Program-made: the position numbers and the translations under genes
Source: Candidatus Altarchaeum sp.
GTDB lineage: Archaea; Altiarchaeota; Altiarchaeia; Altiarchaeales; Altiarchaeaceae
DNA length: 64,000 bases
NCBI GenBank assembly: GCA_018260615.1
Contig: JAGWDQ010000044.1
Coordinates: forward strand, 13,791-77,790
Reading direction: 5' to 3'
Shown: piece by piece, positions 86-14,335 of the stretch
How the letters are laid out: every line of letters begins with the position of its first letter
Position numbering within the stretch: the first letter of the stretch is position 1
Notes under the pieces: model-generated
The model's input: the letters and a program-made list of their open reading frames with translations, nothing else
The model's database searches: none
Told to the model about the DNA's origin: nothing

Positions 86-1303
86 ATGCAGCATAAGTAT
101 AAAAGGGTCTTGCAGGAGGAAAATCCGGAATTGTATGATGCAATTATGAAAGAGCGTGAAAACAGGGAAAATTTACTTTCGTTATTCGCAACAAAAAACA
201 GTGACGGAATAAGAAGGGAGGAAAAATTTACAGAAGACATTCGGACAAAATTTTCAAGGGATGCGGACAGAATCATCCATTCAAAAGCATACAGCAGATA
301 TATTGACAAAACACAAGTATTCTTTCTTGTTGATAATGACCACATAACACACAGGGTCTTGCATGTCCAGCTCGTATCAAAGATCGCCCGCACAATCGGA
401 AGGTCTTTACGGCTGAATGAGGACTTAATTGAGGCGATTGCCATGGGTCATGACATCGGACATCCGCCTTTCGGGCATCTGGGGGAAGAAATTTTGTCGG
501 GTTTATGCAAAGAGTATAAGATTGGAAGATTTTTACATAATGTTGAAGGGGTGAAATTTTTAGATGATATTGAAAACTGTAATTTAACCTTGCAGGTTCT
601 TGACGGAATTCTGTGTCATAACGGCGAAATTTTTGAAAGGAGTTTAAGACCTGACAGAAACAAGAACTGGGAAATTTTTGATAAAGAAGCAGGGGAAATT
701 TTAAAAGGCAGAATAAATTATGCACCTGTGACGCTTGAAGGGTGCGTAGTGAGAATGGCTGATATTATTGCCTATCTCGGAAGGGATATTCAGGATGCAA
801 TCGGAATCGGATTAATAAACAGAGACGATTTAAATTTAATATCCGGTGAATGCACGGGAAAAATCGGTACTGAAAACGCCGACATAATTAATAACCTCAT
901 AATTGACATAATTGAGAACAGTTTTGATAAAGAAGACGAAATTTCTTATTCGGGGGAAATTTATGAGTGCCTGAAAAAATATAAAAATTTTAACTATGAG
1001 AAAATTTATAATAATCCGAAGCGGCTGGGAGAGAAAAGCAAGGTTGAGAGCATGTATGCAACATTATTTGGGAAATTTTTAAATGACTTAGAGCATGAAA
1101 ATAAGGACTCTAAAATTTATAATCATTTTGTTGAAATGAACGGAATAAACAGGGAATATGTTAAGGAATCTTCTTATGCAGAAATTGTCAGGGATTATAT
1201 TGCGGGAATGACCGACAGATATTTTGAAGAGATGTTTAAGGATGTTGTGTTACCAAAAAGAGTAAAGACATTTAAGGAAGAAAGGAAAAAAGAAGATATT
1301 TAA
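86..1303 (+). CDS. dGTP triphosphohydrolase-like HD-domain phosphohydrolase
   Basis: HD motif 'HRVLHVQLV...AMGHDIGHPPFGHLGE', 'RDADRIIHSKAYSR' typical of Dgt family; 405 aa. Confidence 0.8.
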   Translation: MQHKYKRVLQEENPELYDAIMKERENRENLLSLFATKNSDGIRREEKFTEDIRTKFSRDADRIIHSKAYSRYIDKTQVFFLVDNDHITHRVLHVQLVSKIARTIGRSLRLNEDLIEAIAMGHDIGHPPFGHLGEEILSGLCKEYKIGRFLHNVEGVKFLDDIENCNLTLQVLDGILCHNGEIFERSLRPDRNKNWEIFDKEAGEILKGRINYAPVTLEGCVVRMADIIAYLGRDIQDAIGIGLINRDDLNLISGECTGKIGTENADIINNLIIDIIENSFDKEDEISYSGEIYECLKKYKNFNYEKIYNNPKRLGEKSKVESMYATLFGKFLNDLEHENKDSKIYNHFVEMNGINREYVKESSYAEIVRDYIAGMTDRYFEEMFKDVVLPKRVKTFKEERKKEDI

Positions 1304-1373
1304 TGGGTAAGGTAAATTTAAATCATTTAACTATTAAACTAAATGGCTCTTATTTTAATTTTTACTGATTTCA

Positions 1374-1560
1374 GAACTTGCTTCTGAAATCTTTGAATGA
1401 AAAGAGGTGTGAAATCTTTGAATGAAAAGAGGTGATTTTAAAATTCCAAAAATTTTAAAATCTCCGAACAAAGAGAGGTTATTTTAAAAACACAAAGTTT
1501 TGAAAATCTCCGAGCGAAGCGATGTGATAAAATTTTGGAAAAATCTGAAAAATCCTGAAA
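1374..1560. repeat. Intergenic repeat element (TTTTGAAAATC-hairpin family) incl. 24-bp tandem 'gaaatctttgaatgaaaagaggtg' x2 (1386-1434)
   Basis: Modules 'ttttgaaaatctccgagcgaagcg' shared with copies at 6750-6990, 37980-38090, 44220-44470, 49783-49870, 60370-60420. Confidence 0.7.
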
Positions 1561-1707
1561 TATTGCAAATTATTCTAATCATCAAAAACGAGTATAAGAA
1601 CAAATAAATTTAATTTTTATTCTTTTCTTATTTTCTTAATTAATCTTATTCTTAATTATATATCAATATTTATAATTTAAATCAATAATTTATTAAAATC
1701 AAATAAA

Positions 1708-2106
1708 ATGACTGACAATCTAACGGCATACATAGGAATTGTTATCATAGCAGTTGTCGGAATTGCTGTTGCCTTGCTTACGATGGAGGTTATATGGAAA
1801 TTTTTAAGAGTTAAAGATAAAGATAAAGACAAAAATTTAAACGCAAATTCCGGGAAATATGATACCTACGAATGCGGAGAAATCGCAGTTGGGAATCCGA
1901 AATTTTCAAATGTGTCTTTTAAGTATTATATTTATGCTTTAATGTTTGTTGTATTTGATATTGAAGCGGTATTTTTATTTCCCTGGGCAGTTGAATTCAC
2001 AAATTTGGGACTTTTGGGATATGCCGAAGCGATGCTGTTTATTGCTTTAATTTTGGTTGCATTAATATATGCTATAAATAAAAATTTCCTTAAATGGACT
2101 GATTAA
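1708..2106 (+). CDS. nuoA: NADH-quinone oxidoreductase subunit A-like (NuoA/FpoA)
   Basis: 3 TM helices, 'YECGE' motif and 'FDIEAVFLFPW' signature of NuoA. Confidence 0.8.
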   Translation: MTDNLTAYIGIVIIAVVGIAVALLTMEVIWKFLRVKDKDKDKNLNANSGKYDTYECGEIAVGNPKFSNVSFKYYIYALMFVVFDIEAVFLFPWAVEFTNLGLLGYAEAMLFIALILVALIYAINKNFLKWTD

Positions 2107-2150
2107 AATTTGAGATTAAATTTAAATCTTTGAGATGGATAAATTAAATG

Positions 2151-2250
2151 TGCTTCAGAACCTTTTTCTTTTAGAAAAAGAAAAAGCATTCAGGAAAAAG
2201 AAAAAAGTAAACCTTGGAAAAATTTAAAAATTTTAGAAAATTTAAAAATT
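2151..2250. repeat. Mini insertion element (hairpin 'TTTTTCTTTTAGAAAAAGAAAA' + 'GCATTCAGGAAAAAGAAAAAAGTAAACCTTGGAAAAATTT') flanked by 22-bp direct duplication of nuoB start
   Basis: 'tttgagatggataaattaaatg' occurs at 2129-2150 and 2251-2272; related element copies at 40352-40429, 41446-41543, 60338-60580. Confidence 0.75.
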
Positions 2251-2255
2251 TTGAG

Positions 2256-2792
2256 ATGGATAAATTAAATGAGGGTAAATTAAATGTTTCATTCGGAAAA
2301 ACAGAAAAGGTCTTTGGATTTGTTGATAAAATTTTGAGCTGGGGACGACTAAACTCCGTATGGCCTTTAACATTCGGATTAGCATGCTGTGCAATAGAAA
2401 TGATGGCAACCGCAGGTGCAAATAATGATATTGCAAGATTTGGAATGGAGGTATTCAGACCATCTCCGAGACAGGCGGATTTAATGTTCGTTGCGGGAAC
2501 AGTAACTCATAAAATGGCTCCGAGAGTTAAGCGGCTTTATGAACAAATGCCTTCTCCGAAATATGTCATTGCTATGGGGGCATGTGCGACAAGCGGAGGT
2601 CCTTTTTTACATTCTTATGCGGTTGTTAAAGGTGTTGATAAAATTATTCCCGTTGATGTTTATGTTCCCGGATGTCCTCCGAAACCGGAGGCATTACTTG
2701 ACGGAATAATAAAATTAAGGGAGAAAATCGCACAGGAAAAACTGCTGACTGAAAATATTAAAGGAATATTGAGTAAGAACAAGAAAAAGTAA
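2256..2792 (+). CDS. nuoB: NADH-quinone oxidoreductase subunit B-like (NuoB), N2 cluster cysteines present
   Basis: '[10 protein letters not shown]', 'GACATSGG', 'VPGCPP' motifs; start placed at ATG inside duplicated target (ORF track start 2214 probably runs into the inserted element). Confidence 0.85.
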
Positions 2793-2828
2793 GAATATAA
2801 GCGAGAAAAGAAAATAAAACAAGAAAAG

Positions 2829-3348
2829 ATGAAAGAAATCCAAAAAACAGAACCTGAAGGATACGAACAACTGCTCAATGATATAAGATCCATTCTGCAG
2901 AGGAATCTCACTAAAGCATATAAAGCAGTAGATAATATTAGAGTACAAACATACTGGCAGATTGGGGAGAGGGTTGTCAGGGAGGAAATAAACCGGAAGA
3001 GGGCGGGCTATGGAGAGGAAGTCATTAAGAGATTGGCAATTGACCTGAAGATTAATGAAAGAACGTTGTATAGGATTCTAAGGTTCTACAATACATATCC
3101 GATTTTGACAACAGTATTGTCAGAATTGACATGGTCACATTACCTGGTGCTAACGAATGTCAATGACAATAACCAGAGGAAAACTTATCGTATGCAAGAG
3201 TCATGATAAGGTTGATGTTTATTACAGTGCGGGAAAAGATAGAGATGATATTTTCGTTACAGAATACAAAACAAAGTTACCAAGTGAACAGGAAATAGAA
3301 TCTATATTAAAGAAACAAAGTAATATATCAGAAAGTGAAGATATATAA
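2829..3348 (+). pseudogene. Remnant of DUF1016/YhcG-like (PDDEXK-family) gene: N-terminal domain ORF (2829-3206) and short C-terminal tail ORF (3157-3348) in different frames, nuclease core missing
   Basis: N-terminal 'LLNDIRSILQRNLTKAYKAVDNIRVQTYWQIGERVVREE...GYGEEVIKRLAIDL' resembles DUF1016 N-domain; second ORF ends 'EYKTKLPSEQEIESILKK' like DUF1016 C-terminus. Confidence 0.5.
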
Positions 3349-3512
3349 ATCCATATAGAAGTAAACAGGTAAAAACTAAAATTCAAGAAATTATTGGAAA
3401 GTGTTAAAAAACAGATTAAAAAAAGAATGAAGTGAAACCGTTACAAAATGTAACGGTTTGAAAATGACTGCCGAATACCAAAAACATGTTTTAGGTATTT
3501 CAACTAAATTTG

Positions 3513-3618
3513 TAACTACTCACGGGTTAACAAAATTTACCTGTGAAAATTTCAAAAAAATACAAAAAATCAAAAAATTTACCAGTAATTTTTTATGGCG
3601 GGTGAGTAGTTACCTAAA
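3513..3618. repeat. MITE-like element with terminal inverted repeats 'TTGTAACTACTCAC ... GTGAGTAGTTAC'
   Basis: 12-13 bp perfect inverted repeat ~75 bp apart; TIR similar to that of 6700-6998 element (GTAACTAYTCA). Confidence 0.6.
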
Positions 3619-3649
3619 TTTAATTCGTTTATAATAATGTAAAAATAAA

Positions 3650-5596
3650 ATGGATGAAATTTTTAACGAAATAAAGGATAAATTTAATGCCCTTGTTGAA
3701 GAGGATGGGACATTAAAATACATAGTAGTAAATGCAGAAAATTTACAGACAATTGCAAAATTTTTAAAAGAAAAGGGCTATGAACACTTGTCTTTTGTAA
3801 CCGCAATTGACAGACAGAATGAATTAGAGGCAGTTTATTTGCTCCATTCTTATGCTAATAAGGACTCAATTGCATTGAAGGTCAAATTGGGAAATTCGGA
3901 GGGCAGCATAAAAGAAAAGACAGAAATTTTAATTTCTCCGGCAGAGCTCGTTGCCGAAGGAATTAAACAACATGAATTATGTATCGGATGCGGATTATGC
4001 AACAAGGTTTGTGTTCAGAGCGTTGATATCAAAGCGATTATTTTCGCATTAAAACAGAATAAAGAAATAAAAGCAGAACAAATTTCCAATTGTGCAAAGT
4101 GCGGATTATGTGAGCCGAAATGTCCGAAGAAGATAAAAATTATGGAAATTTTTGAGGCGATAAATAAGATAAAAGACAGAAAAGCAGAGGCGGTAAAAGA
4201 TGTTGTAAAAGATACTGAAAAAGCAAAAATATCAGCTCAAAATTTTGTCATTCCGAGTTTGACAGAAATTTTTAATTCAGCCGACTGGCACGAGCGGGAA
4301 ACCTATGATATGTTCGGAATAAAATTTGACGGACATAAAAATTTAAAACGACTCTTACTTCCCGCACAATTTGAAGGCCATCCTCTCCGTAAGTCATATC
4401 CTCTCGGTAAAGAGCAGGAAATTTCTTTGGATAGCGACTTTGAAGCGACAAAAGACGAATTAAGTGTTGAAGAATTTATCAAAAACCACCATTATGAAAC
4501 ACAGATTATGGAATTAAATGTAGGTCCCCACCACCCTTCAACACACGGCGTCTTACGACTGAAAATGTTGATTGACGGCGAAAAGATGCTCAAAATTTAC
4601 CCCGTAATAGGATATTTACACAGGGGCATTGAAAAAATATGTGAAAATTTAAACTACAATCATATTGTTCCTTATATGGATCGTTTAGATTATGTTGCCT
4701 CAATGCTCAACGAATTTCCTTATGTCCTGGCAATGGAAAATTTAATGAATATTCAGGTTCCGGAAAGGGCACAGCTCATAAGGGTCATCGTCAGCGAACT
4801 TAATCGTATAGCAAGTCATATAATGTGGTTCACAACATATCTTATGGATTTAGGGGCAACAACACCTTTCTTTTACGGATTCAGGGAAAGGGAGCAAATT
4901 CTGGAAATTTTTGAGGATTTAAGCAGGGCGAGAATGACATTTAATTATATGTGTGTCGGAGGAGTTAAAAAGGACATCACTCCGGAAATCGCCGGCAAAA
5001 TTTATAAATTTACTGCTCAAATGCCCGCACATATCATGGAATATTATGATTTAATTAACGGGAATGAAATTTTTCTCGGAAGGGTAAAAGGCATCGGGAA
5101 ATTAACAAAAGAGGATGCAATAAATTTCGGAGTTACCGGACCCATGCTCAGGGCAAGCGGTGTTGATTATGATATAAGAAGAGATGAGCCGTATTCAATG
5201 TATGATAAGTTTAAATTTAATGTTCCTGTATCTAATGACGGAGACAATTTTGCGAGGTATATCGTCAGGATGAAGGAAATGGAGGAAAGCGTAAAAATCG
5301 TTGAGCAGGCGACACAATTGCTGAATTCGGCAAAAGAAGGAGAAATAATGGCTAAAGTTCCGAAGTTAATCACGCCGCCAAAAGGAAGTGTTTATGCAAA
5401 AATTGAGCATGCAAAGGGAGAGATGGGAATTTTTATTGTCAGTGACGGAAGGCAGAAACCGTATCGCTTTAAAATTCGTTCGCCTGCATTTTCAAATTTA
5501 TGTGCTTTGCCGAAGATGTGTGAAAATAACTATGTTGCGGATGTCGTTGCTATAAGCGGAACAATTGATCCGGTAATGGGGTGTGTGGACAGGTAA
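3650..5596 (+). CDS. nuoCD: Fused NuoC-NuoD (30 kDa + 49 kDa subunits) with an embedded 2x[4Fe-4S] ferredoxin domain inside the NuoC part
   Basis: NuoC motifs ('[17 protein letters not shown]'), '[11 protein letters not shown]' and '[12 protein letters not shown]' ferredoxin motifs, NuoD N-terminus '[17 protein letters not shown]' without hydrogenase CxxC; 648 aa. Confidence 0.85.
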
Positions 5597-5635
5597 ATTT
5601 AAATCTTAAAAATATTCATTTCAATTTTATACAAC

Positions 5636-6691
5636 ATGGAAACATTAAATTTATTTCAGGGAAATGCAATAGAACTCGGAATCAGGACTTTGCAAAATTT
5701 CGGAATTCAGGAAGACATGGCCTCTTTGTTCGTTTATGGCAGTGTGGGGGTTTTGTTATTTGTTGTTGCTGCTGTTTTTGTGCTAATCCTGACTTATCTT
5801 GAAAGAAAAATTTTAGCCGATGTTCAGGTCAGATTAGGGCCTATGACGGCAGGACCTCACGGAATATTACAGCCGCTTGCCGATGTAATGAAACTGATAT
5901 TTAAAGAAGACATAAAACCAAAAAACAGGGACAAATTGCTTTACTTTATCTCACCAGTTCTTGTTTTTATTCCCGTGCTTTTAATACTTGCCTTAATTCC
6001 TTTTAATGAATTCTTTGCTTTTGCAAATGTGGGAGTCGGATTGCTGCTGTTGATCGCTTTCGGTTCAATTTCAACACTCGGAATGGTTATTGCAGGTTAT
6101 AGTTCGGGAAATAAATATTCTTTGCTCAGTTCATTAAGGGCTGCCGCACAGATGATGGCTTATGAAATTCCGATGCTTATTGTTGCTTTGAGTGTTGTTG
6201 TTCTTGCCGGAAGTATGAATTTAATAGACATAGTTAATGCACAGGTAAATTTATGGTTCGCAATTCCTTTATTTTTGGGATTGTTTGTATTTTTTGTTGC
6301 TACTATTGCCGAAATGGGAAGAGTTCCGTTTGATACAACTGAGGCGGAAAGCGAACTGATTGCGGGTTATCATATAGAATATAGCGGAATGAGGTTTGCT
6401 TTCTTTTATCTGGCAGAATACTTGCATTTGTTTGTCGGCTCTGCTTTAATTACCCTGCTGTTTTTGGGAGGGTGGAACGGGTTGTTTGCTATTCCGATGA
6501 TTCCGGAAGCGGTTTCGGGCTTGTTCTGGTTTTTGATTAAGACATTTACTTTGATTTATGTGGCGATATGGATCAGGGGGACATTGCCGAGATTTAGAAT
6601 TGACCAGGTGTTAAATTTGGGATGGAAATTTTTGATATTTGTTGCGTTGTTAAATTTGGCAGTCAGCGGGGCGATTGCGGTTATCTTTTAA
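5636..6691 (+). CDS. nuoH: NADH-quinone oxidoreductase subunit H-like (NuoH/ND1)
   Basis: 'RLGPMTAGPHGILQPLADVMKLIFKED' and 8 TM topology typical of NuoH. Confidence 0.85.
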   Translation: METLNLFQGNAIELGIRTLQNFGIQEDMASLFVYGSVGVLLFVVAAVFVLILTYLERKILADVQVRLGPMTAGPHGILQPLADVMKLIFKEDIKPKNRDKLLYFISPVLVFIPVLLILALIPFNEFFAFANVGVGLLLLIAFGSISTLGMVIAGYSSGNKYSLLSSLRAAAQMMAYEIPMLIVALSVVVLAGSMNLIDIVNAQVNLWFAIPLFLGLFVFFVATIAEMGRVPFDTTEAESELIAGYHIEYSGMRFAFFYLAEYLHLFVGSALITLLFLGGWNGLFAIPMIPEAVSGLFWFLIKTFTLIYVAIWIRGTLPRFRIDQVLNLGWKFLIFVALLNLAVSGAIAVIF

Positions 6692-6699
6692 AAATTTAA

Positions 6700-6998
6700 A
6701 GTAACTATTCAGCCACCCCAAAAAATTACGGGTAAAAATTTAATTTTTACGCTCACTCCGTTCCACTCACTTCGTTCGTGTCTTTTCAAAACCTCTGCAG
6801 TTTTGAAAATCGTGTATTTTAAAATTTCGTAAATTTTAAAATTGTATTTTTTTTGAAAATCTCACAGGTAATAAAAAAATCACGCTGATTTTTTTAGATT
6901 GAAAACTTGTAGTTTTCAGTATTTAAAAATACCAAAGTATTTTTAAAGATTGAAAATCTTATAGATTTTCAGTAATTTGACGCCCTCTGAATAGTTAC
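6700..6998. repeat. MITE-like element (~300 bp) with 12-bp terminal inverted repeats GTAACTATTCAG/CTGAATAGTTAC, internally carrying TTTTGAAAATC-family hairpin modules
   Basis: 'agtaactattcag' at 6700-6712 and 'ctgaatagttac' at 6987-6998; interior 'cactcacttcgttcgtgtcttttcaaaacctctgcagttttgaaaatcgtgtatttt' matches 44262-44300 and 60372-60410. Confidence 0.7.
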
Positions 6999-7019
6999 AA
7001 TTTAAAATTTATGCGGGGT

Positions 7020-8477
7020 TTAAATTAAAAGCAAATATCTCAATGGCAACTTGATAAATTTGTCATCAATTAATTCAAGTTCGTCATTACCTATACTTAT
7101 TCCGTAAGAAAAATTTTTTATCTTTTTAGATGTCTCTTTTATCTGCTTTATTCCATAGTCCTCTTTGTTAAAACCAATTTCAATAACGAGCTCTTTATCA
7201 TCATTCCTTAAAATAAAATCAGCACCTTTTTCCGAAGAATCATACATAAATTCCATCCTCCTGCATAATTTTTTAAAGTCCTTAATAAATACCAGTCCGC
7301 AGTAATCTTCAAGTATTTTGCCTTTTATCTCCGGAGGATATCTCCCTTGTAACAGAGATGACCGCAGCGATGGTGAAATGAATAAATATTTTACCGGCTT
7401 TCTCGCTTTTGCATAAGCACCGCCATAACTTCTGATTTTTATTATAATTCCGGCCATAACCAAAACATCTAACAATGAAGTTAATGTCTTATTGTCAATA
7501 TTTAAGGACTTGCCCAATTTTTCATAACTTATTACATCTGATTTTGCTAAAAGATAGAGCAAATTATATATCTTTTGTATTGTTTCCGAATTGAATTTTT
7601 TAAGTGTTATAATGTCTTTTGTGATTAACTTTTCAATCACATTTTGTATTAATTTATAACATCTTTCCTTATTTGTTGTCTTTATTACAAATGGAAATCC
7701 TCCGATATCCAAAAAATCATACTCAATTTTAGGTGGCAAATTGGCAAATAAACGATTCACTTCCAATGAAATGGACATAACGGACTCATACATTTGTCTT
7801 GCGTTTTCACTTTCCAATAGACATCTTAATAATGTATCTGAAAGATCCGGGACTGGAAATTTTATGTTTTTCAATTTCAGATATTCAGTAAATTTAAGCG
7901 GATAAATTTCTTCTGTACTTGCCCTTCTTGAAAGGTCCGGATTCATATTAAGACATAAAGCAGAAGACCCTGTTGCGAGTATTAAAACATTTCTGTGTCC
8001 CATTGTTCTGTCAAAAATCGTCTTTAAGAAAAGCCCCCATTGTTCATCATAGTGAACTTCATCAAGCAAAATTAAAATTTTTTTGTTCAGATTCTCAAAC
8101 TTAAATCTTTTTAGATCTTCATAAAAACGAAAGAACTCATTTAAAGTAATTCCTTCCAAATGTAATTCGCTTACATCAAGATAAATTTTTTCATATTCCT
8201 GAGTAAATATTTTCTGATTACCTGCAAATTTCTGAGCATAAAAAATTTGTGCAAAAAGCGTTGTTTTTCCAACACCTCTAATTCCAGACAAAAGATTGAT
8301 TTTTTCAAGTTCATCAGTTTGATTATTCAAAAATTTTTCCAAAAGCACTTCGTAATGAGAAAAAATATGTCTGGTTGGTAATAAATTGTTGTTTTCATCA
8401 TAAATGTATGCTGACAGAAAATTATCAAGTCCTTCTGTCCATAGCCGGTAAAAATTTTCTATTTTTGTATTCTCCAT
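7020..8477 (-). CDS. AAA+ ATPase of the archaeal COG1373-like family (AAA_14 + C-terminal DUF4143-like)
   Basis: Walker A 'GVGKTTL', Walker B 'LLDEVHYDEQW', 485 aa; typical orphan archaeal ATPase. Confidence 0.6.
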   Translation of the reverse strand: MENTKIENFYRLWTEGLDNFLSAYIYDENNNLLPTRHIFSHYEVLLEKFLNNQTDELEKINLLSGIRGVGKTTLFAQIFYAQKFAGNQKIFTQEYEKIYLDVSELHLEGITLNEFFRFYEDLKRFKFENLNKKILILLDEVHYDEQWGLFLKTIFDRTMGHRNVLILATGSSALCLNMNPDLSRRASTEEIYPLKFTEYLKLKNIKFPVPDLSDTLLRCLLESENARQMYESVMSISLEVNRLFANLPPKIEYDFLDIGGFPFVIKTTNKERCYKLIQNVIEKLITKDIITLKKFNSETIQKIYNLLYLLAKSDVISYEKLGKSLNIDNKTLTSLLDVLVMAGIIIKIRSYGGAYAKARKPVKYLFISPSLRSSLLQGRYPPEIKGKILEDYCGLVFIKDFKKLCRRMEFMYDSSEKGADFILRNDDKELVIEIGFNKEDYGIKQIKETSKKIKNFSYGISIGNDELELIDDKFIKLPLRYLLLI

Positions 8478-8536
8478 TTTGTATGTTTTGATTTATAAAA
8501 TCAATTTATAGAATTAGAATTAGATTAAAATATGCA

Positions 8537-8630
8537 TTTTATTGGGAATAGAATCCCATTAAAACACCATTTTTATTGGGAATAGAATCCCATTAAAACA
8601 GGAGTTTTATTAGGAATGGACTCCCATTAA
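8537..8630. repeat. Three adjacent direct repeats (~34 bp, 'TTTTATTGGGAATAGAATCCCATTAAAACA') immediately upstream of the minus-strand ATPase gene start
   Basis: Copies at 8537-8566, 8570-8600, 8605-8630 (third degenerate); no spacers, so not CRISPR; contains GGGA..TCCC mini-stem. Confidence 0.6.
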
Positions 8631-8649
8631 CCCAAATTTCCCATATGTC

Positions 8650-9918
8650 TTATATATTTATCTCCTCAATCCTCAAAAATTTTTGCTCACCGCTCTCCAT
8701 ATCCCTCAAAGTAACCTTGTTTTCCTCAACCTCTTTCTTTCCGACAACAACAACATACCTGTATTTGTTATTTGCATACTCCATCGCCTTTCTGACTTTT
8801 CTGTTCATTATATCCAAATCCGCTATAATATTTCTTTCCCTTAGTTCTTTTACTACTTTAACACAATAGCCCTTAAATTCCTCACTGACGAATGTAATTA
8901 AAATTTTCCTGTTTTCAAATTTAGGGCTCAAATTTTGCATCTTCAGCGCCTCAATCACTCTGTCAAACCCGTAGGCAAACCCGACTGCCGGAGTGTTTTT
9001 GCTTTTATTATCCTGAACTCCTTTATCTTCCGAAAACAATCCGATAAGATTATCATATCTCCCCCCGCCGCAAATCTGCATATTATTCGCGTGAATCTCA
9101 AATACCGTTGAAGTATAGTAATCCAGTCCGCGAACAGTGTTAAAATTTATAACATAATCAACACCATATAATTCCGCAAATTTTAAAACATTTTCCAGTT
9201 CGTCAATTCCTTCAATCGCTTCCCCGCAGTCATTCAGTAAATTTTTTAAATCGCTTAAATTTTCCCTGTTTCCCTTAAATGAAAGAACTTTGTTTAAAAT
9301 TTCTCCCCTGTCAGTCCTTTTTAAAATTTCATTAACTCCTTCATCATTATGCTTGTCAATATAGTGCAAAATTTTTTTCTTGTCTTCCTCTCTTAAATTT
9401 GCCGAATTCAGAACCCCCTTAATTACCTTTATATTACTGAGCTCCAGAACAAAATTTAAATTTAAGGACTTTAAGCCCTCATAAGCCAGAGAAATAACTT
9501 CCGCATCGCTTTCCGGATTATTACTTCCGATCAATTCAACCCCCAGATGCCAGAATTCCCTGTATCTCGCATGCTGCGGCTCATCATATCTAAATACGGG
9601 ACAAAAATAGTAAAATTTCAAAGGAAAGGCAAAATTTTTAAAATTTTCAGTGAAAAAACGAGCGGTTGAAGCGGTCTGCTCCGGTTTCAGGCATACCTCT
9701 CTGTTTCCTTTATCCTTAAATACAAACATACTTTCAGTGATTTCCTCTCCTGATTTTAATGTGAATATATTTGTGTATTCAACCGTCGGGGTTAAAATTT
9801 CGTCAAATCCGTATAATTTAAATTTTTTTTCTACTGCTTCTCTCACATAGTTCCTTATTTTCATATCATCGGGCAAAAAATCCCGGAAACCCCTTAATTT
9901 TTCTGTTTTGATGTCCAT
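8650..9918 (-). CDS. hisS: Histidine--tRNA ligase
   Basis: Class II aaRS motifs, 'FRYDEPQHARYREF' and 'GGGRYDNL' HisRS signatures; 422 aa. Confidence 0.85.
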   Translation of the reverse strand: MDIKTEKLRGFRDFLPDDMKIRNYVREAVEKKFKLYGFDEILTPTVEYTNIFTLKSGEEITESMFVFKDKGNREVCLKPEQTASTARFFTENFKNFAFPLKFYYFCPVFRYDEPQHARYREFWHLGVELIGSNNPESDAEVISLAYEGLKSLNLNFVLELSNIKVIKGVLNSANLREEDKKKILHYIDKHNDEGVNEILKRTDRGEILNKVLSFKGNRENLSDLKNLLNDCGEAIEGIDELENVLKFAELYGVDYVINFNTVRGLDYYTSTVFEIHANNMQICGGGRYDNLIGLFSEDKGVQDNKSKNTPAVGFAYGFDRVIEALKMQNLSPKFENRKILITFVSEEFKGYCVKVVKELRERNIIADLDIMNRKVRKAMEYANNKYRYVVVVGKKEVEENKVTLRDMESGEQKFLRIEEINI

Positions 9919-10068
9919 ATTTTTTAATTTCTCTTTTTAATTTACTCTGACTGAAAAATTTTTACAAGTATTGTTACACAATTATGAGCAAAAATAAAAG
10001 AATGAAAATTTAACTATTCAGGCGGTAATAAAATTCATCACAATTACGTTCACATCGTTCAAGGGCAA

Positions 10069-10164
10069 ATAATAATTATACAAAAACATATAATATTAAT
10101 TATACATAATTGTATTATACAAAAACGACAAATAATAATTATACAAAAACATATAATATTAATT
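10069..10164. repeat. Direct repeat 'AAATAATAATTATACAAAAACATATAATATTAATT' x2 separated by ~26 bp
   Basis: Exact 35-bp copies at 10069-10103 and 10130-10164. Confidence 0.6.
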
Positions 10165-10227
10165 GCGCATAAGGTAAAAATGAAAAATCCATTTGTATTC
10201 GGGGTAGAGGTTTGTTAAATTTCTAAA

Positions 10228-10283
10228 ATGGAAACACTGCTTCCAAAACCAAAAACGCGGGGAAAAATTTCCGTTGAAGAAAG
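10228..10283 (+). other. Diverged duplicate of the first ~55 bp (start codon onward) of the nitroreductase gene at 12309
   Basis: 'atggaaacactgcttccaaaaccaaaaacgcggggaaaaatttccgttgaagaaag' vs 12309 'atggaaatcacaacacttccggaaccaaaaacaaaaggaaaaatttcgtttgaagaag' (~80% identity). Confidence 0.7.
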
Positions 10284-10379
10284 TAAATGAGTATTTTTCC
10301 TGAATTTTTAACATTATTCTTTTAAACTAAATAATTTCCTAATTTACTAATATAAAATTTATTTATCAATATAGTAAAA

Positions 10380-11654
10380 ATGCAAATCAAAGAAATAAAA
10401 ATAGAAAACTTTAAAGGAATATCTTATTTGAAGTTTTCTCCAAAAAAAATAAACTTAATTGTAGGAAGGAACAATACTGGCAAAACCAGCGTTTTGGAAG
10501 CAATTGATTTGTTATTTAATCCTGAAAATATAGTGCAAATGTATGGTGAACATCTTTCGGATATAATTCATACAGAGACCGAATATTCAGAACTTGTAGC
10601 GAAGATAGGTAAAAGCAAAAAGAAATTAAGGATATCAAAATCATACAAAAGCGAAGTGATTTACCAATTCAAGAAAGACGTTACTGGGGCATTTATTAGG
10701 TCATTAAACAAATTTTTTGCTCTTATTAACCTTCCTGAAAACATCATAGATACAGAAGAAATCAGACACAAATTAGAAAACAAAATGGATGAAGCAATAA
10801 CTCCTGAGATAATAGGCATCATATCAAAAAAGAGTGTGTGTCTCTTAAAAGACAGCGAAGATAAAACAGTAAGGTATCACTTGCCATTTTCAGAATATTC
10901 TCGAATTTCTCGCATTTTACTTCCTGTGTCGCTCGAGATTTTCGAACAAATATCTAAACAGGGTACAAAGTCGTTGAATGAAAAGGTTTTGTCATATGAC
11001 GAGGTTTTGTCAGTTATAAATGCCAATATGTTTGAGATGTTCTCACTTTTTGAACATCCCACAAAAATTTCGGGAGGGAAAAATGTAGTTTTAATAAAAG
11101 ATTTATCTGGTGTGAAATTTGAACTGGAAGAAAAAGACGCAGAAATGAAAAGGAAAATTAGGAATATAGAATCCATTATAAAAGAGCATAATTTGATTGA
11201 AAATTTAGAAAGATTGGATTTTGACTATGTTACATTTAAAGATAAAAATGAAAAATTAAGTTTTGTTCCATTTTCTTTTTTAGGTGATGGTTTTAAAGTA
11301 ATGGTTGGCTTGCTGTGGCATATTTCCTCACCAAATATGGAGAATAAAATTGTCCTGCTTGATGAGCCGGAAACCCACATGCATCCTGGTTATATTCTGG
11401 AATTAATAAAGTTCCTTATCAAATTTTCAGATAAACTAAACATCCGGTTTTTCATAACGACTCATAGCTGGGACTTTCTTGATTTGTTGCTTGACAAGGA
11501 TAATTTTTCACAAGAAGATCAAAAATATTTGGAAAAGGACTTATTGTTGTTAAGAATGGATAAATTAGATGATTCTACTATTCCGACCATTTCGGACTAT
11601 AAAGATGCCAAATATGCAAAGGACAAGCTTTTCCTGGATTTAAGAGGAATTTAA
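10380..11654 (+). CDS. ABC/AAA-type ATPase of the OLD / AriA (PARIS) / AAA_15-21 family
   Basis: N-terminus 'IKEIKIENFKGISYLKFSPKKINLIVGRNNTGKTSVLEAI' (Walker A), 'LLDEPETHMHPGYI' (Walker B/D-loop), 'FFITTHSWDFLDLL' (H-loop); 424 aa. Confidence 0.75.
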   Translation: MQIKEIKIENFKGISYLKFSPKKINLIVGRNNTGKTSVLEAIDLLFNPENIVQMYGEHLSDIIHTETEYSELVAKIGKSKKKLRISKSYKSEVIYQFKKDVTGAFIRSLNKFFALINLPENIIDTEEIRHKLENKMDEAITPEIIGIISKKSVCLLKDSEDKTVRYHLPFSEYSRISRILLPVSLEIFEQISKQGTKSLNEKVLSYDEVLSVINANMFEMFSLFEHPTKISGGKNVVLIKDLSGVKFELEEKDAEMKRKIRNIESIIKEHNLIENLERLDFDYVTFKDKNEKLSFVPFSFLGDGFKVMVGLLWHISSPNMENKIVLLDEPETHMHPGYILELIKFLIKFSDKLNIRFFITTHSWDFLDLLLDKDNFSQEDQKYLEKDLLLLRMDKLDDSTIPTISDYKDAKYAKDKLFLDLRGI

Positions 11655-11656
11655 AA

Positions 11657-12307
11657 ATGAAGAGGATAATCATTTGTGAAGGAAAACATGATAGTATTTT
11701 CTTACGCGCACTATTTCCCAAAATTGGCATTCCTGATAAAGATATAGAAATATTTGATCAGGGGGAGCGTGATAAAAAGGAAGATTTGAGAAATATAGAA
11801 ACAAAAATAGTCGGTAAATTTCTCAGCCCTTACGGACCTTACAGTTCTTGTAAAATTTTGGTAAAGTCAGAAGAGGGAAAGGGTAACGCGATTCATCTGT
11901 TTGCAGAATATTTAACAACATGGATACAAAACTTTGAAACATTTTTGATGCTGGACTTAGATACTTCTCTTTATAAACAAAACAAGTCGGGTAAAAGCAG
12001 GGAGAAAAAAACAAGAATTGAAAGAATGTTAAATAAATTAAAAGAGATGATAAAAAACAAACATGGAAATTTTGAAATAGAGTGTGAAGATATAAAAGAT
12101 AGTGAATTGTTGGTAAGAAAATGTTATCTAAAAGATAAAAACGGCAACCAACGAGTAGGAAGCCCATTTTATCTAATTTTGTTTGTTCATTCGTTAGAAG
12201 AAGAAGCTAACAGGACAGTCCCCTCTGATAATGTTGATATTGAAGGTAAAATATCCAAACTTGTTGAACTGCCCGATATTCAAGACACATTTTCGTCATT
12301 ATTTTAA
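11657..12307 (+). CDS. Small TOPRIM-like protein (DUF4435/OLD-TOPRIM-like) translationally coupled to the ATPase
   Basis: 'IIICEGKHDSIFL' (E-G-x-x-D Toprim-type motif), later 'FLMLDLDTS' (DxD-like); starts 3 bp after ATPase stop; 216 aa. Confidence 0.5.
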   Translation: MKRIIICEGKHDSIFLRALFPKIGIPDKDIEIFDQGERDKKEDLRNIETKIVGKFLSPYGPYSSCKILVKSEEGKGNAIHLFAEYLTTWIQNFETFLMLDLDTSLYKQNKSGKSREKKTRIERMLNKLKEMIKNKHGNFEIECEDIKDSELLVRKCYLKDKNGNQRVGSPFYLILFVHSLEEEANRTVPSDNVDIEGKISKLVELPDIQDTFSSLF

Positions 12308-12308
12308 A

Positions 12309-12881
12309 ATGGAAATCACAACACTTCCGGAACCAAAAACAAAAGGAAAAATTTCGTTTGAAGAAGCAATATTTAAAAGGAAGTCGCACAGGAAATTTAC
12401 GGCTGAAAATTTAAGCACGGATGAAATTTCACAGTTATTATGGGCTGCTTACGGAAGGAACAAAGACCGCAAAGTTGTCCCGTCGGCAGGGGCAACATAT
12501 CCCTTTGAAATTTATATAAATTTAAGCGATGGAATCTATAAGTATGAAAGTGACAGGCATAAAATTTTAAAGGTTGTTGAGGGAAACAAAAGTGAATTAT
12601 TATATTATGCGGCATTACATCAAGAGTGCGTAAAAAATGCGAAAGCAACAATTATTCTCGCTGTCAATTACGAAAAAATTAAGGTAAGATACGGAGACAG
12701 AAGCATTAGATATACACACTTTGAGGCAGGTCATATTGCCCAGAATATTTGTCTGCAGGCGGAAGCATTAAATTTGGGAAGTGTATGTATCGGTGCGTTT
12801 GATGAAGAAAAGGTTGCGAAAATAATAAATTTAGATGAAAATTTAAAAGCAATTTACATGATTTGTGTGAGTAAAATTTAA
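12309..12881 (+). CDS. Nitroreductase-family protein (start set at ATG 12309; ORF track 12231 extension unlikely)
   Basis: 'FKRKSHRKFTAE', 'LLWAAYG' nitroreductase fold signatures. Confidence 0.7.
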   Translation: MEITTLPEPKTKGKISFEEAIFKRKSHRKFTAENLSTDEISQLLWAAYGRNKDRKVVPSAGATYPFEIYINLSDGIYKYESDRHKILKVVEGNKSELLYYAALHQECVKNAKATIILAVNYEKIKVRYGDRSIRYTHFEAGHIAQNICLQAEALNLGSVCIGAFDEEKVAKIINLDENLKAIYMICVSKI

Positions 12882-12902
12882 TTTGACATTTACTATTTAC
12901 TT

Positions 12903-13103
12903 TCACTCCTCTTCATCAAAAATAAATAATTCATCAATTTTAGAGTTAAGTGCTTTCGCTATGTCATACGCAAGTTTAAGTGAAGGGTTGTATTTTCCCT
13001 TTTCAAGAAAGACAATGGTCTCTCTTCTGACACTAACTTTTTTTGCTAATTCTTCTTGTGTCAAATTGTATCTTGCCCGAAATTCTTTGAGTCGTGTTTT
13101 CAT
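12903..13103 (-). CDS. XRE-family helix-turn-helix transcriptional regulator
   Basis: '[48 protein letters not shown]' classic HTH_3; 66 aa. Confidence 0.85.
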
Positions 13104-13150
13104 TCTTTAAACTTTCAAACTGAAATTATTGTAATTAATTCAAACTAATT

Positions 13151-14335
13151 TTATGCAAACAACTCGCTATTCACCAAAATATCTGGTTTTTCGCCTTTTG
13201 GAACTTTCACTTCCAAACCTAAAATTACATAGGATTCTTTATTTGTTTTTCCTTTCCAACCCGTTTCAAATTCATCCTCTTTCAAAGTATCTACTCCAAA
13301 TTTACCTTGCTCCATAAAGTATTTCTGCCTTATATCAAGGATGTTGTCACCATATTGCACCCTTTCAAGAGAAAGTTCATATTCTTTATTTTTTTCAACA
13401 TTGAATGTTGCAACAGGTGCCCAGCCAATAATAACTCCGTTGTTAATTTTGACTCTTGTTTTCAGAGATTTTAGTGGTTTTGTATCTATTTTACCCTTTA
13501 CCTGAATCCAGATAATGTATCCGTCATAATCTGGCATTTTCCAAAAACTTGAGTTTATCCGGTAAATTTCTATAGCATCCCATATTTCTGAGTGTGTTGT
13601 TTCCTCTCCAAAAGGTTTATCTTCTGTACCTTTTCCTGTCCCTGCACTATATAATCTGGCTTCGAGGATAAGACCATGAGTTTCCGGAGAAATAAAATCC
13701 TCCTTAAACATCCATGTCTGATTAGTTATATTGTATTGTTCATCACATACTGATGGAGCAGAACATATCTCATGATCTATTGAAACATGTTCCATCATCG
13801 GCGGAAAAATATACTCCTGAATTATGGCTGGTCCGATGAGTATAGTAAATGCCATTAAAATTCCAAGCCCTATTTCAGTCAATGTCAATATCATCTTATC
13901 TGTTTTTTCATCATCTCGTTCATGCAGATAATAAGATACCATGTATATAATGAATCCGGCAGCAAAAGCAACTTCTATAAGAGATGAAAAAATTTGCTCA
14001 TCTATTATATCAAAACCCAATAATGCTATTAAAATCGCTATTGAAGCTACAAGAAATATAAAACCCTTTTTTGATGCTTTTAAAGTGTTTAATTCCGTTC
14101 GCTCATCAATTCTAATTCTTACTTCACCTGTTCTTTTATATTGAATGATTTCGTAAAGAGAATAAAGTGCAATAATAGTTCCCAGTAATATGAGTAATCC
14201 TGAGATTAAGTATTCTGGGGTGGATACAGCGCCTCTAAAATATAACCACATTACCCCACACATAGTAAAAAATATACCTAATATTGCCCATCTGTATGGT
14301 ATTTGAGATTGTTTATTTATTTGTTCGTTTTTCAT
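13151..14335 (-). CDS. Membrane protein, N-terminal 4-5 TM domain plus ~200-aa C-terminal soluble domain; paralog of 14376-15023
   Basis: Shared N-terminal 'QIPY(R)W..LGIFFTMCGVMW' / 'QIPYWGTIIGIIITLWGILW' with neighbour; adjacent to XRE regulator. Confidence 0.5.
   Translation of the reverse strand: MKNEQINKQSQIPYRWAILGIFFTMCGVMWLYFRGAVSTPEYLISGLLILLGTIIALYSLYEIIQYKRTGEVRIRIDERTELNTLKASKKGFIFLVASIAILIALLGFDIIDEQIFSSLIEVAFAAGFIIYMVSYYLHERDDEKTDKMILTLTEIGLGILMAFTILIGPAIIQEYIFPPMMEHVSIDHEICSAPSVCDEQYNITNQTWMFKEDFISPETHGLILEARLYSAGTGKGTEDKPFGEETTHSEIWDAIEIYRINSSFWKMPDYDGYIIWIQVKGKIDTKPLKSLKTRVKINNGVIIGWAPVATFNVEKNKEYELSLERVQYGDNILDIRQKYFMEQGKFGVDTLKEDEFETGWKGKTNKESYVILGLEVKVPKGEKPDILVNSELFA

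What the first reader, a model, noticed from the sequence alone, without database searches (positions are those of the whole stretch)
1708..6691. Minimal complex-I-like module nuoA-nuoB-nuoC(Fd)D-nuoH with a ferredoxin domain embedded in NuoC and an interrupting DUF1016 remnant
Only four subunit genes are clustered, with no nuoI/J/K/L/M/N following. NuoC carries an internal 2x[4Fe-4S] insert ([11 protein letters not shown] ... [12 protein letters not shown]) that could substitute for a separate NuoI. NuoD lacks [NiFe]-hydrogenase cysteines, so it is not an Ech/Mbh hydrogenase. A degenerate DUF1016/YhcG-like nuclease gene fragment (2829-3348) and a MITE-like element sit between nuoB and nuoCD. 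The remaining subunits may be elsewhere, or this may be an Ehr-like reduced complex.
Basis: partly seen in the sequence, partly recalled or inferred. Interest (0 to 1): 0.55.

Follow-up and report, generated by a model that had tools for sequence, protein, structure and literature searches.

The report
Complex I NuoC with built-in ferredoxin
This is one half of a split complex-I-like respiratory enzyme of an uncultivated subsurface archaeon (Altiarchaeum); its normally cofactor-free NuoC subunit carries a conserved, tethered two-cluster iron-sulfur domain that may be the enzyme's missing electron entry point, and the gene cluster is littered with dead selfish DNA.

Summary
nuoA, nuoB, a decayed DUF1016 nuclease gene, a fused nuoCD with a 2x[4Fe-4S] insert in NuoC, and nuoH lie at the stated coordinates. 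The "minimal module" reading does not hold. The window is Altiarchaeum DNA. The metagenome that holds a near-identical contig also holds a second contig with nuoI-CBS-nuoJ1-nuoJ2-nuoK-nuoL-like-nuoN. In relatives both halves form one operon. A separate NuoI with eight cysteines exists, so the insert does not replace it.

The insert is real and under selection. All 8 Cys are invariant in 10 homologues of 47-97% identity, and dN/dS is about 0.14-0.22. It occurs across the order Altiarchaeales and appears nowhere else among 1.8 billion representative proteins. It folds as a separate HdrC/CdhA-type domain between two disordered linkers and is 46% identical to the ferredoxin domain of a CODH/ACS alpha subunit. 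It has been lost repeatedly, even among variants at least 90% identical. Altiarchaeum hamiconexum genome assemblies appear to carry two NuoCD paralogues, one of which always has the insert.

Best reading: a tethered electron-input relay on an NuoEFG-less complex I. This is inferred, not shown. I found no paper describing it. It is a new variant of a known kind, of moderate interest.

The parts
1385..1528 (.). Tandem and interspersed repeats upstream of nuoA (25-nt x2 exact; 46-nt x2.2). Copies lie elsewhere in the window and in other Altiarchaeum loci.
1708..2106 (+). nuoA (132 aa)
   Evidence: Pfam Oxidored_q4 2e-27; about 78% DNA identity to nuoA of L003
2135..2227 (+). 30-aa ORF made by a partial duplication of the nuoB 5' end (2107-2150 resembles 2229-2271). 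Probably not a gene.
2256..2792 (+). nuoB (178 aa) with all four N2-cluster cysteines ([18 protein letters not shown])
2829..3348 (+). Dead DUF1016/YhcG PD-(D/E)XK nuclease gene. It keeps aa 14-126 and 281-323 of a 333-aa intact homologue. The roughly 154 aa between them are deleted and the two parts are in different frames.
3370..3471 (+). Ancestral nuoB-nuoCD spacer with a perfect hairpin (3435-3459). It is 83% identical to the L003 spacer, more conserved than the flanking nuoCD-nuoH DNA (78.6%).
3512..3613 (+). MITE-like element with terminal inverted repeats GTAACTACTCAC...GTGAGTAGTTAC
   Evidence: (z = -4.4)
3650..5596 (+). nuoCD fusion (648 aa). NuoD has the quinone-site His299 and Tyr348 and no NiFe site.
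3923..4207 (+). Ferredoxin-type 2x[4Fe-4S] domain inserted in a NuoC loop (aa 92-186; Cys 111, 114, 117, 121, 148, 151, 154, 158). Low-confidence linkers flank it at aa 83-90 and 186-196.
5636..6691 (+). nuoH (351 aa)
6692..6880 (-). Second copy of the MITE-like element, directly after nuoH. The full extent to 6880 is inferred by analogy with the 96% relative L001.

Best explanation
The locus is the A-B-CD-H half of a split operon for an NuoEFG-less, Nuo-type complex-I-like enzyme of an Altiarchaeum (Alti-1) archaeon. The other half, nuoI-CBS-nuoJ1-nuoJ2-nuoK-nuoL-like-nuoN, lies elsewhere in the genome. NuoB (cluster N2), NuoD (quinone-site His and Tyr), NuoH and a separate eight-cysteine NuoI are all canonical, so the core should work as in complex I: NuoI clusters to N2 to a lipophilic acceptor, coupled to ion translocation. 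The special feature is a 95-residue, lysine-rich domain of the HdrC/CdhA type that binds two [4Fe-4S] clusters. It is spliced into a surface loop of NuoC between two disordered K/E/T-rich linkers. I infer that it acts as a tethered, built-in ferredoxin. In that role it would extend the iron-sulfur wire outward and exchange electrons with a soluble low-potential partner (ferredoxin, CODH/ACS or similar), doing the job that the N-module does in 14-subunit complex I. The direction could be reversed if the enzyme uses the membrane potential to make reduced ferredoxin for the Wood-Ljungdahl pathway. The DUF1016 fragment and the hairpin repeats are decayed selfish DNA that landed in the intergenic spacers and have no role in the enzyme. 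Shown: gene content, the split architecture, and the conservation, selection, fold and distribution of the insert. Inferred: cluster binding, electron relay, the partner and the direction.
For: Organism and second cluster: the window's NuoCD is found exactly in NCBI GCA_002841105.1 and in JGI sample 3300029890. That sample holds contig Ga0246099_100213 with nuoI(125 aa)-CBS-J1-J2-K-626 aa-511 aa. Its GC is 33.4% against 32.9% for the window, and the tetranucleotide correlation is 0.992. NCBIfam assigns these genes to NuoI, J, K, MrpD/NuoL-like and NuoN. NuoI has two CxxCxxCxxxCP motifs. Both halves form one operon in L003-L005.

Insert: 8 Cys plus G, K, D, K, L, K, K, P, K, K are invariant in 10 sequences of 47-97% identity. 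dN/dS of the core is 0.14-0.22, like the flanking NuoC, while the linkers evolve fast. In the AF2 model of NuoCD (mean pLDDT 86) the insert scores 63-88 and its two linkers below 50. The domain modelled alone has pLDDT 89.5 and matches HdrC (TM 0.69, rmsd 2.1 A) and the archaeal CdhA ferredoxin domain (TM 0.56-0.64). It is 46% identical over 78 aa to the ferredoxin domain of a bona fide CdhA. The NCBIfam cdhA model also hits aa 99-195. Profile hits in the PDB are PsaC, HdrC, CdhA and NdhI.

Distribution: A. hamiconexum, WOR_SM1_86-2, WOR_SM1_SCG and IMC4. Only two representatives out of 1.84 billion score below 1e-30 against the NuoC(Fd) part.

[quoted passage not shown] The electron donor of 11-subunit complexes is an open question (PMC11238625).
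Against: No geometry is available. I could not model NuoC together with NuoI, so the distance from the insert's clusters to N6a is unknown, and the host loop may face away from NuoI. The insert is dispensable in one paralogue. It has been lost in several lineages with different deletion boundaries. It is also absent from 560-aa variants that are at least 90% identical to 659/666-aa variants that have it. The first Cys motif in the window ends CV rather than CP. The link between the window and the second cluster rests on the shared metagenome and composition, not on one contig. No expression or biochemical data exist for these uncultivated organisms.
Confidence: 0.55

Rival explanations
1. The insert is a structural, assembly or redox/oxygen-sensing Fe-S domain, like the ferredoxin-like domain of archaeal RNA polymerase subunit Rpo3. 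It would lie outside the main electron path. Electrons would reach NuoI directly from ferredoxin, as in other NuoEFG-less complexes.
For: The domain has been lost repeatedly without loss of the gene. Insert-less NuoCD genes remain intact and conserved. Other 11-subunit complexes work without such a domain (PMC11238625). A precedent for regulatory ferredoxin-like domains is PMC5300874 (listed; abstract only).
Against: A paralogue with the insert is found in the same A. hamiconexum accession series as the insert-less one. The nearest relatives of the domain (CdhA E/F-type, HdrC, PsaC) are all electron-relay modules. The invariant lysine-rich surface suits docking of an acidic ferredoxin.
Confidence: 0.25
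2. One reading: a self-sufficient minimal or Ehr-like four-subunit module in which the NuoC insert substitutes for NuoI.
For: Only A, B, CD and H lie in the 64-kb window. The insert gives a weak NuoI-family match (TIGR01971, 27 bits).
Against: A canonical nuoI and nuoJ-K-L-N are on a second contig of the same metagenome. They are fused into one operon with A-B-CD(Fd)-H in relatives that also carry the insert. The NuoB N2 ligands are intact, unlike the defining degeneration of Ehr.
Confidence: 0.03
3. The insert is a neutral or decaying piece of another gene (for example cdhA) with no function.
For: It is flanked by low-complexity linkers and is easily deleted. It is 46% identical to a CdhA domain.
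Against: All 8 Cys and 10 other residues are invariant down to 47% overall identity. dN/dS is 0.14-0.22. The domain alone gives a confident fold, pLDDT 89.5.
Confidence: 0.04
4. The DUF1016 gene is, or was, a functional accessory of the nuo operon rather than a selfish insertion.
For: DUF1016 genes or fragments recur in or beside nuo clusters in three lineages: the window, IMC4 (three copies, translationally coupled), and A. hamiconexum paralogue 2.
Against: The window copy lacks most of the nuclease domain and is frame-shifted. It is absent from the 96% relative. The IMC4 copies have 35-41% GC against 49-54% for the flanking nuo genes. Homologues of 54-81% identity occur in DPANN archaea (Nanoarchaeota, Woesearchaeota, nanohaloarchaea) and in bacteria, and the closest full-length one sits in unrelated contexts. 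DUF1016 is known from mobile elements (PMC4316617).
Confidence: 0.05

Closest known systems
NuoEFG-less ('11-subunit') complex-I-like enzymes: bacterial nuoABCDHIJKLMN, cyanobacterial NDH-1 and the Fpo-like complexes of some methanogens
   Same: Same core subunits: A, B, C, D, H, I, J, K and antiporter-like subunits. N2 ligands and quinone-site residues are intact, and no NADH-binding module is encoded in the cluster. A low-potential donor such as ferredoxin is presumed.
   Different: NuoC carries two extra predicted [4Fe-4S] clusters. Only two antiporter-like subunits appear in every Alti-1 cluster seen. A CBS-pair gene sits between nuoI and nuoJ. The operon is split in two. A second B-CD-H-I paralogue exists.
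E. coli and Aquifex aeolicus NuoCD fusion (PDB 7P7J chain C, 7Q5Y chain B)
   Same: These are the best structural matches to the model (TM 0.74-0.76 on the query, 27-29% identity), with the same C-D fusion.
   Different: They have no insert. About 100 query residues are left unmatched.
Ferredoxin-like domain of archaeal CODH/ACS alpha subunit CdhA (PDB 3CF4, 9C0Q), and HdrC
   Same: The same helical-linker 2x[4Fe-4S] fold. Identity is 46% to one CdhA domain. There are profile and structure matches. By my own knowledge, this CdhA domain binds clusters E and F and relays electrons out of the enzyme.
   Different: Here the domain is grafted into NuoC on flexible linkers. I did not establish which lineage P0482 (the CdhA) comes from.
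Group 4 membrane-bound [NiFe] hydrogenases (Ech, Mbh, formate hydrogenlyase) and Ehr complexes
   Same: Homologous B/D/H/I-type subunits. The formate hydrogenlyase subunit 7Z0S chain E also matches structurally.
   Different: There is no NiFe site (one of four Cys). Nuo-specific models score above their cutoffs. NuoA, J, K and N are present.
DUF1016/YhcG PD-(D/E)XK nucleases on mobile elements, and free-standing homing-endonuclease genes of phages
   Same: A nuclease-family gene wedged between genes of a conserved operon. It is compositionally foreign, patchy in distribution, and decays after insertion (PMC4316617).
   Different: No homing activity or target site is known for DUF1016. The analogy is behavioural only.

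Membership tests
Complex I / NDH-1 family, Nuo type | NuoB with four Cys ligands of cluster N2 | tested here: met
   [14 protein letters not shown] and GCPP are in the translation. The NuoB subfamily model scores 246 bits against a cutoff of 116.
Complex I / NDH-1 family, Nuo type | NuoD without a NiFe site and with the quinone-site His and Tyr (T. thermophilus Nqo4 H38 and Y87; numbering from my own knowledge) | tested here: met
   H299 and Y348 are invariant in 62 sequences. NuoD NF004739 scores 468 bits against a cutoff of 360.
Complex I / NDH-1 family, Nuo type | A separate NuoI with 2x[4Fe-4S], plus NuoH, A, J and K | tested here: met
   H and A are in the window. I, J1, J2 and K are on contig L025 of the same metagenome. 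The link to the window's genome is inferred from the shared sample and composition.
Complex I / NDH-1 family, Nuo type | Three antiporter-like subunits (L, M, N) | tested here: not met
   Only two are present (a 623-628-aa MrpD/NuoL-like and a 491-555-aa NuoN-like) in every Alti-1 cluster examined: L003-6, L010-12, L022-26. A third gene elsewhere in the genome is not excluded. Alti-2 IMC4 has three.
Complex I / NDH-1 family, Nuo type | NuoC (30-kDa subunit) carries no cofactor | tested here: not met
   An eight-Cys dicluster domain is inserted at aa 92-186.
F420H2 dehydrogenase (Fpo) | Fpo-specific subunit signatures and FpoF/FpoO | tested here: not met
   FpoD scores 343 bits (cutoff 600), FpoH 314 (475), FpoC 76 (220), FpoI 66 (180) and FpoK 93 (145). 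FpoF and FpoO were not searched for genome-wide.
Group 4 [NiFe] hydrogenase (Ech/Mbh) | Two CxxC motifs in the large subunit that bind Ni-Fe | tested here: not met
   There is no Cys at the N-terminal motif (RLDYVASM). The C-terminus is DPVMGCVDR, with one Cys.
Ehr (energy-converting hydrogenase related) complex | Loss of NiFe ligands together with degenerate Fe-S ligands in the small subunit, and a reduced subunit set (definition from my own knowledge of Marreiros et al. 2013) | tested here: not met
   NuoB ligands are intact. NuoI, A, J, K and N are present.
2x[4Fe-4S] bacterial-type ferredoxin domain (HdrC/CdhA helical subtype) | Two CxxCxxCxxxC(P) motifs and the matching fold | tested here: met
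   The motifs are invariant. Fer4_17/8/9/7 match at E 4e-7 to 7e-5, though only Fer4_17 exceeds its Pfam cutoff. Structural matches to HdrC and CdhA have probability 1.00. Actual cluster binding cannot be tested here.
DUF1016/YhcG PD-(D/E)XK nuclease | An N-terminal DUF1016_N domain plus an intact YhcG_C nuclease domain | tested here: not met
   The N domain is present (80 bits). Only the last roughly 40 aa of the nuclease domain remain (22.7 bits against a cutoff of 32.5). Residues 127-280 of the intact homologue are deleted and the frame is shifted. This is a pseudogene of the family.
MITE (miniature inverted-repeat element) | Short, non-coding, with terminal inverted repeats, in many copies, with target-site duplications | tested here: inconclusive
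   Terminal inverted repeats, a stable fold and at least eight partial or full copies in about 400 kb of Altiarchaeum DNA were found. No target-site duplication or parent transposase was identified.

The most novel reading that the evidence does not exclude
The NuoC-tethered, CdhA-type two-cluster domain is a previously unrecognised kind of electron-input (or output) module for the complex I family. It would be a swinging built-in ferredoxin that wires an NuoEFG-less complex I directly to the Wood-Ljungdahl machinery (CODH/ACS or its ferredoxin) in Altiarchaeales. Two alternative Q-modules, A-B-CD-H and B-CD(Fd)-H-I, would share one two-pump membrane arm.
Probability: 0.35. Interest if true: 0.75.

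Novelty: new variant of a known kind. Interest (0 to 1): 0.52.

Why it matters
How complex-I-like enzymes that lack the NADH module receive electrons is an acknowledged open question (PMC11238625). In every solved complex I I know of, NuoC is a cofactor-free scaffold. A lineage in which NuoC has acquired its own pair of iron-sulfur clusters offers a natural experiment on how new electron-input modules are grafted onto the complex I core. The domain is conserved across an order, related to the CODH/ACS relay domain, and present or absent among near-identical strains. It also bears on how Altiarchaeum, a dominant subsurface CO2 fixer, conserves energy. Separately, selfish genes (DUF1016 nucleases, Bro-N and toxin-antitoxin pairs) have landed repeatedly between nuo genes. 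This illustrates operon invasion in archaea and is a warning for annotation: an interrupted operon does not imply a reduced complex.

Tried and rejected
1. I looked for the missing subunits inside the window. Pfam on all large ORFs found only housekeeping, defence-like and DNA-metabolism genes.

2. The genome-contig scan with NuoL found only two close Altiarchaeum genomes, not the window's. The second cluster was found instead through exact-protein look-ups of NuoL homologues.

3. The idea that the insert replaces NuoI is rejected.

4. The idea that the whole of 2835-3627 is one insertion is rejected. That region is extra relative to the 96% relative, but 3370-3471 is ancestral spacer that the relative deleted.

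5. The idea that DUF1016 homes specifically into nuo operons is not supported. Homologues of 54-81% identity are widespread in DPANN archaea and bacteria, and the closest full-length ones sit in unrelated contexts.

6. Rfam found nothing for the spacer, the hairpins or the repeats, at either the gathering threshold or E <= 1. No tRNA is present.

7. Literature searches for a description of an Fe-S insert in NuoC, or of Altiarchaeal complex I details, found only general statements.

8. A structure search with the whole NuoCD model returned ordinary NuoCD chains that do not cover the insert.

9. I could not model NuoC together with NuoI because of tool restrictions, so the key geometry is untested.

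Full report
**1. What is there**

- nuoA is 1708-2106.
- nuoB is 2256-2792. The ORF opens at 2214, but the public gene calls start it at 2256.
- A DUF1016 N-terminal domain ORF is 2829-3206, followed by a frame-shifted YhcG_C tail at 3157-3348.
- A fused nuoCD is 3650-5596 (648 aa).
- nuoH is 5636-6691.

In NuoCD the Complex1_30kDa match is split by 4Fe-4S dicluster matches at about aa 106-162. The quoted motifs are present (C111/114/117/121 and C148/151/154/158-P159). NuoB has all four N2 ligands. NuoD has the invariant His299 and Tyr348 that align with the quinone-site residues of bacterial Nqo4 (the Nqo4 numbering is from my own knowledge). It lacks the NiFe ligands, keeping one of four Cys in DPVMGCVDR. 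NuoB, NuoD and NuoH score above NCBI's Nuo cutoffs and well below the Fpo cutoffs. The rest of the 64-kb window holds ribosomal proteins, GyrB, helicases, Lon, HMG-CoA reductase, TrkH and similar genes, and no further nuo gene.

**2. Whose DNA it is, and where the other subunits are**

The closest NuoCD homologues are annotated as Candidatus Altarchaeum/Altiarchaeum. The exact protein is encoded in NCBI GCA_002841105.1 and in JGI metagenome 3300029890 (contig Ga0246099_100138). That contig is 99.6% identical to the window over its first 9 kb.

In a relative whose NuoCD is 74% identical (GCA_036169895.1, locus L003) the operon reads nuoI(124 aa)-CBS-nuoJ1-nuoJ2-nuoK-628 aa-520 aa-nuoA-nuoB-nuoCD(Fd)-nuoH. 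I looked up homologues of that 628-aa subunit. This found the I-CBS-J1-J2-K-L-like-N unit as a separate cluster in several Altiarchaeum lineages. It also found the unit on contig Ga0246099_100213 of the very sample that holds the window's contig (L025).
- L025 has the window's composition: GC 33.4% against 32.9%, tetranucleotide r = 0.992.
- NCBIfam calls its genes NuoI, NuoJ (split in two), NuoK, an MrpD/NuoL-like subunit and NuoN. The NuoL model aligns over the full length of the L-like subunit, including its C-terminal extension.
- Its NuoI has two CxxCxxCxxxCP motifs.

So the complex is not minimal.

**3. The insert in NuoC**

*Conservation.* Ten homologues of 47-97% identity carry an insert at the same loop. 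All eight Cys are invariant, as is a set of mostly basic residues (G, K, D, K, L, K, K, P, K, K). Named members place it in A. hamiconexum (Alti-1) and in the Alti-2 genomes WOR_SM1_86-2, WOR_SM1_SCG and IMC4.

*Distribution.* I ran an exhaustive HMMER search with the NuoC(Fd) part against 1.84 billion representatives. Only two had E < 1e-30, both from this clade. All other top hits were ordinary NuoC proteins matched in two stretches on either side of the insert.

*Selection.* A Nei-Gojobori comparison of the window with the 96% and 74% relatives gives dN/dS of 0.14-0.22 for the domain core. The flanking NuoC is similar (0.06-0.24), and the two linkers evolve fast.

*Structure.*
- AlphaFold2 models NuoCD with mean pLDDT 86 (pTM 0.81). 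The insert scores 63-88 and is bounded by two segments below 50, at aa 83-90 and 186-196. It is therefore a discrete domain on flexible tethers.
- The best PDB matches are the NuoCD fusions of Aquifex and E. coli, which lack the insert.
- Modelled alone, the domain has pLDDT 89.5. It matches the N-terminal ferredoxin domain of HdrC (TM 0.69, rmsd 2.1 A) and the ferredoxin-like domain of archaeal CdhA (TM 0.56-0.64, 26-29% identity).

*Origin.* By sequence the insert is 46% identical over 78 residues to the ferredoxin domain of P0482, a protein that scores 991 bits on the cdhA equivalog model. The cdhA and RnfC models also hit the insert directly. PDB profile hits are PsaC, HdrC, CdhA, FwdF and NdhI.

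**4. The insert is ancestral, but it can be lost**

A neighbour-joining tree built on the alignment without the insert places insert-bearing sequences on all deep branches. Insert-less ones are nested among them. This tree is crude and was not bootstrapped. The deletions have different boundaries. Within the cluster of P0002 (members at least 90% identical) there are 659/666-aa proteins with the domain. There are also 560/561-aa proteins without it, including CEG11242.1 from a groundwater metagenome. The deletion lies exactly between the K/E/T-rich linkers.

A. hamiconexum assemblies appear to hold two paralogues. This is inferred from neighbouring protein accession numbers.
- One is an insert-less protein of the window's type: P0542, accessions NCN68838, NCS91461 and NCN65691.
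- The other is a 644-aa insert-bearing protein only 49% identical to the window's: P0529, accessions NCN68277, NCS90969 and NCN64575.

The second paralogue sits in a four-gene cluster nuoB-nuoCD(Fd)-nuoH-nuoI (NuoB and NuoI confirmed). A related copy (P0014) occurs in metagenome 3300029891, the sample that holds the window's 96% relative.

**5. Mechanism**

Shown: a canonical Q-module and membrane subunits, and an extra dicluster domain that is conserved, under selection, tethered and lysine-rich.

Inferred: the domain binds two [4Fe-4S] clusters and serves as a built-in ferredoxin. It would pass electrons between a soluble partner and the NuoI clusters. It would thus supply the docking and entry function that NuoEFG, FpoF or the NdhS/V site provide elsewhere. 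The direction may be reversed in an autotroph that needs reduced ferredoxin.

In support:
- All of the domain's nearest relatives are relay modules.
- Its basic surface suits an acidic ferredoxin.
- The published idea is that Altiarchaeota use a ferredoxin-dependent complex-1-like enzyme (PMC6349945).

Against:
- The domain has been lost repeatedly in one paralogue.
- No geometric test was possible.

The main rival is a structural or redox-sensing role. Substitution for NuoI and neutral junk are both effectively excluded.

**6. The interrupting DNA**

Relative to the 96% relative, window 2835-3627 is extra.

*The DUF1016 remnant.* The DUF1016 ORFs correspond to aa 14-126 and 281-323 of an intact 333-aa homologue, at 75-79% identity. 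The roughly 154 aa between them are deleted, which removes most of the nuclease domain, and the two parts are in different frames.

That homologue lies between nuoA and nuoB of Altiarchaeales IMC4. The IMC4 operon also contains two more DUF1016 genes (one with the same kind of internal deletion), a Bro-N gene and a small membrane ORF wedged between nuo genes. All of these have 35-43% GC, against 49-54% for most flanking nuo genes (nuoK is 44%). The host NuoCD proteins are only 47% identical, so the nuclease gene moves horizontally.

Its homologues of 54-81% identity occur in DPANN archaea (Nanoarchaeota, Woesearchaeota, nanohaloarchaea) and in bacteria. The closest full-length ones sit in unrelated contexts. 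DUF1016 is known from mobile elements (PMC4316617). The 96% relative instead carries a DUF3368+UPF0175 pair between nuoCD and nuoH.

*The spacer and the hairpin element.* Region 3370-3471, with a perfect hairpin, is ancestral spacer shared with L003. Region 3512-3613 is a hairpin element with terminal inverted repeats. A second copy follows nuoH, and there are copies in other loci. Rfam recognises none of these.

**7. Verdict**

The enzyme belongs to a known kind, an NuoEFG-less Nuo-type complex I that has already been hypothesised for Altiarchaeota. It shows undescribed variations:
- an Fe-S domain in NuoC;
- only two antiporter-like subunits in Alti-1 clusters;
- a conserved CBS gene within the cluster;
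- two paralogous Q-modules.

I found no paper describing the insert. Novelty: a new variant of a known kind. Interest: moderate.

Noticed in passing
L027 (GCA_020718025.1 DYDF01000010.1 = Altiarchaeales IMC4) 206-14013: The canonical-order nuo operon is invaded by five foreign genes: three DUF1016 genes (629-1630, 6351-6926, 7161-8174), a Bro-N gene (9992-10825) and a 125-aa membrane ORF. Gaps or overlaps with the nuo genes are only a few nucleotides at most junctions. Their GC is 35-43% against 49-54% for most flanking nuo genes. One DUF1016 sits between the two halves of split nuoJ.
   Followed up: partly
L034 9441-13559, L035, L036 (A. hamiconexum); L028/L029: There is a second, paralogous Q-module cluster, nuoB-nuoCD(Fd)-nuoH-nuoI, without nuoA/J/K/L/N. 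Its NuoCD is only 49% identical to the window type. It lies next to a DUF1016_N fragment, transposases, toxin-antitoxin genes and ars genes. The locus GC is 39%, against about 32% for other Altiarchaeum loci, so it may be an island.
   Followed up: partly
L003 5283-8770; L025 8001-11420; also L010-12, L022-24: All Alti-1 clusters seen encode only two antiporter-like subunits. One is a 623-628-aa subunit with an MrpD-like core and a NuoL-like C-terminal extension (TM, long amphipathic stretch, TM). The other is NuoN-like. IMC4 (Alti-2) has three. This may be a two-pump complex I.
   Followed up: partly
L025 6724-7128; L003 3920-4327; L027 5691-6086: A CBS-pair gene of about 131-135 aa is conserved between nuoI and nuoJ1 in both Alti-1 and Alti-2. 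It may be a nucleotide-sensing accessory subunit of the complex.
   Followed up: no
P0002 cluster (P0571/P0575 against P0569/P0573); alignment A4: Variants with the insert (659/666 aa) and without it (560/561 aa) are at least 90% identical to each other. The deletion end-points lie in repeated ETE/K-rich linker sequence, which suggests recombination between the linkers.
   Followed up: partly
window 3370-3471: The nuoB-nuoCD spacer segment with the perfect hairpin AAACCGTTACA/TGTAACGGTTT is 83% identical to L003, more conserved than the flanking nuoCD-nuoH DNA (78.6%). It may be a regulatory or processing element. A TTTATAATAA box lies about 20 nt before the nuoCD start and is kept in the 96% relative.
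   Followed up: partly
window 1385-1528; also 38019-38068, 44279-44461, 49798-49875: A second interspersed repeat family (units TGAAATCTTTGAATGAAAAGAGGTG and a 46-mer) lies upstream of nuoA. Copies occur elsewhere in the window and in L003, L010, L013 and L025.
   Followed up: no
window 2107-2271: The first roughly 44 nt of the nuoB start region are duplicated directly after nuoA (87% identical). This creates a 30-aa ORF (2135-2227) that gene callers annotate. The duplication is also present in the 96% relative.
   Followed up: no
L001 10268-11144 / L002 9957-10857: The 96% relative has a DUF3368 (PIN-like) + UPF0175 pair inserted between nuoCD and nuoH, and it lacks the DUF1016 remnant. This is a different selfish insertion at a different spacer of the same operon.
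   Followed up: partly
window 5570-5596 (NuoD C-terminus): NuoD ends DPVMGCVDR. The Cys at the position of the last NiFe ligand is kept throughout most of the Altiarchaeales clade but is Glu or Asp in most other NuoD sequences aligned.
   Followed up: no
window 7020-8477 (-), 10380-12307 (+): There is an AAA_14/DUF4143 ATPase, and an AAA_15/AAA_21 (AbiEii-like) ATPase followed by a 216-aa protein with a weak DUF3226 match. These may be defence-type gene pairs flanking hisS.
   Followed up: no
window 38202-40265: The ORFs for ribosomal proteins S13 and S11 open 64-81 codons upstream of the conserved domains. This is probably an artefact of taking the first start codon, not a real extension.
   Followed up: no
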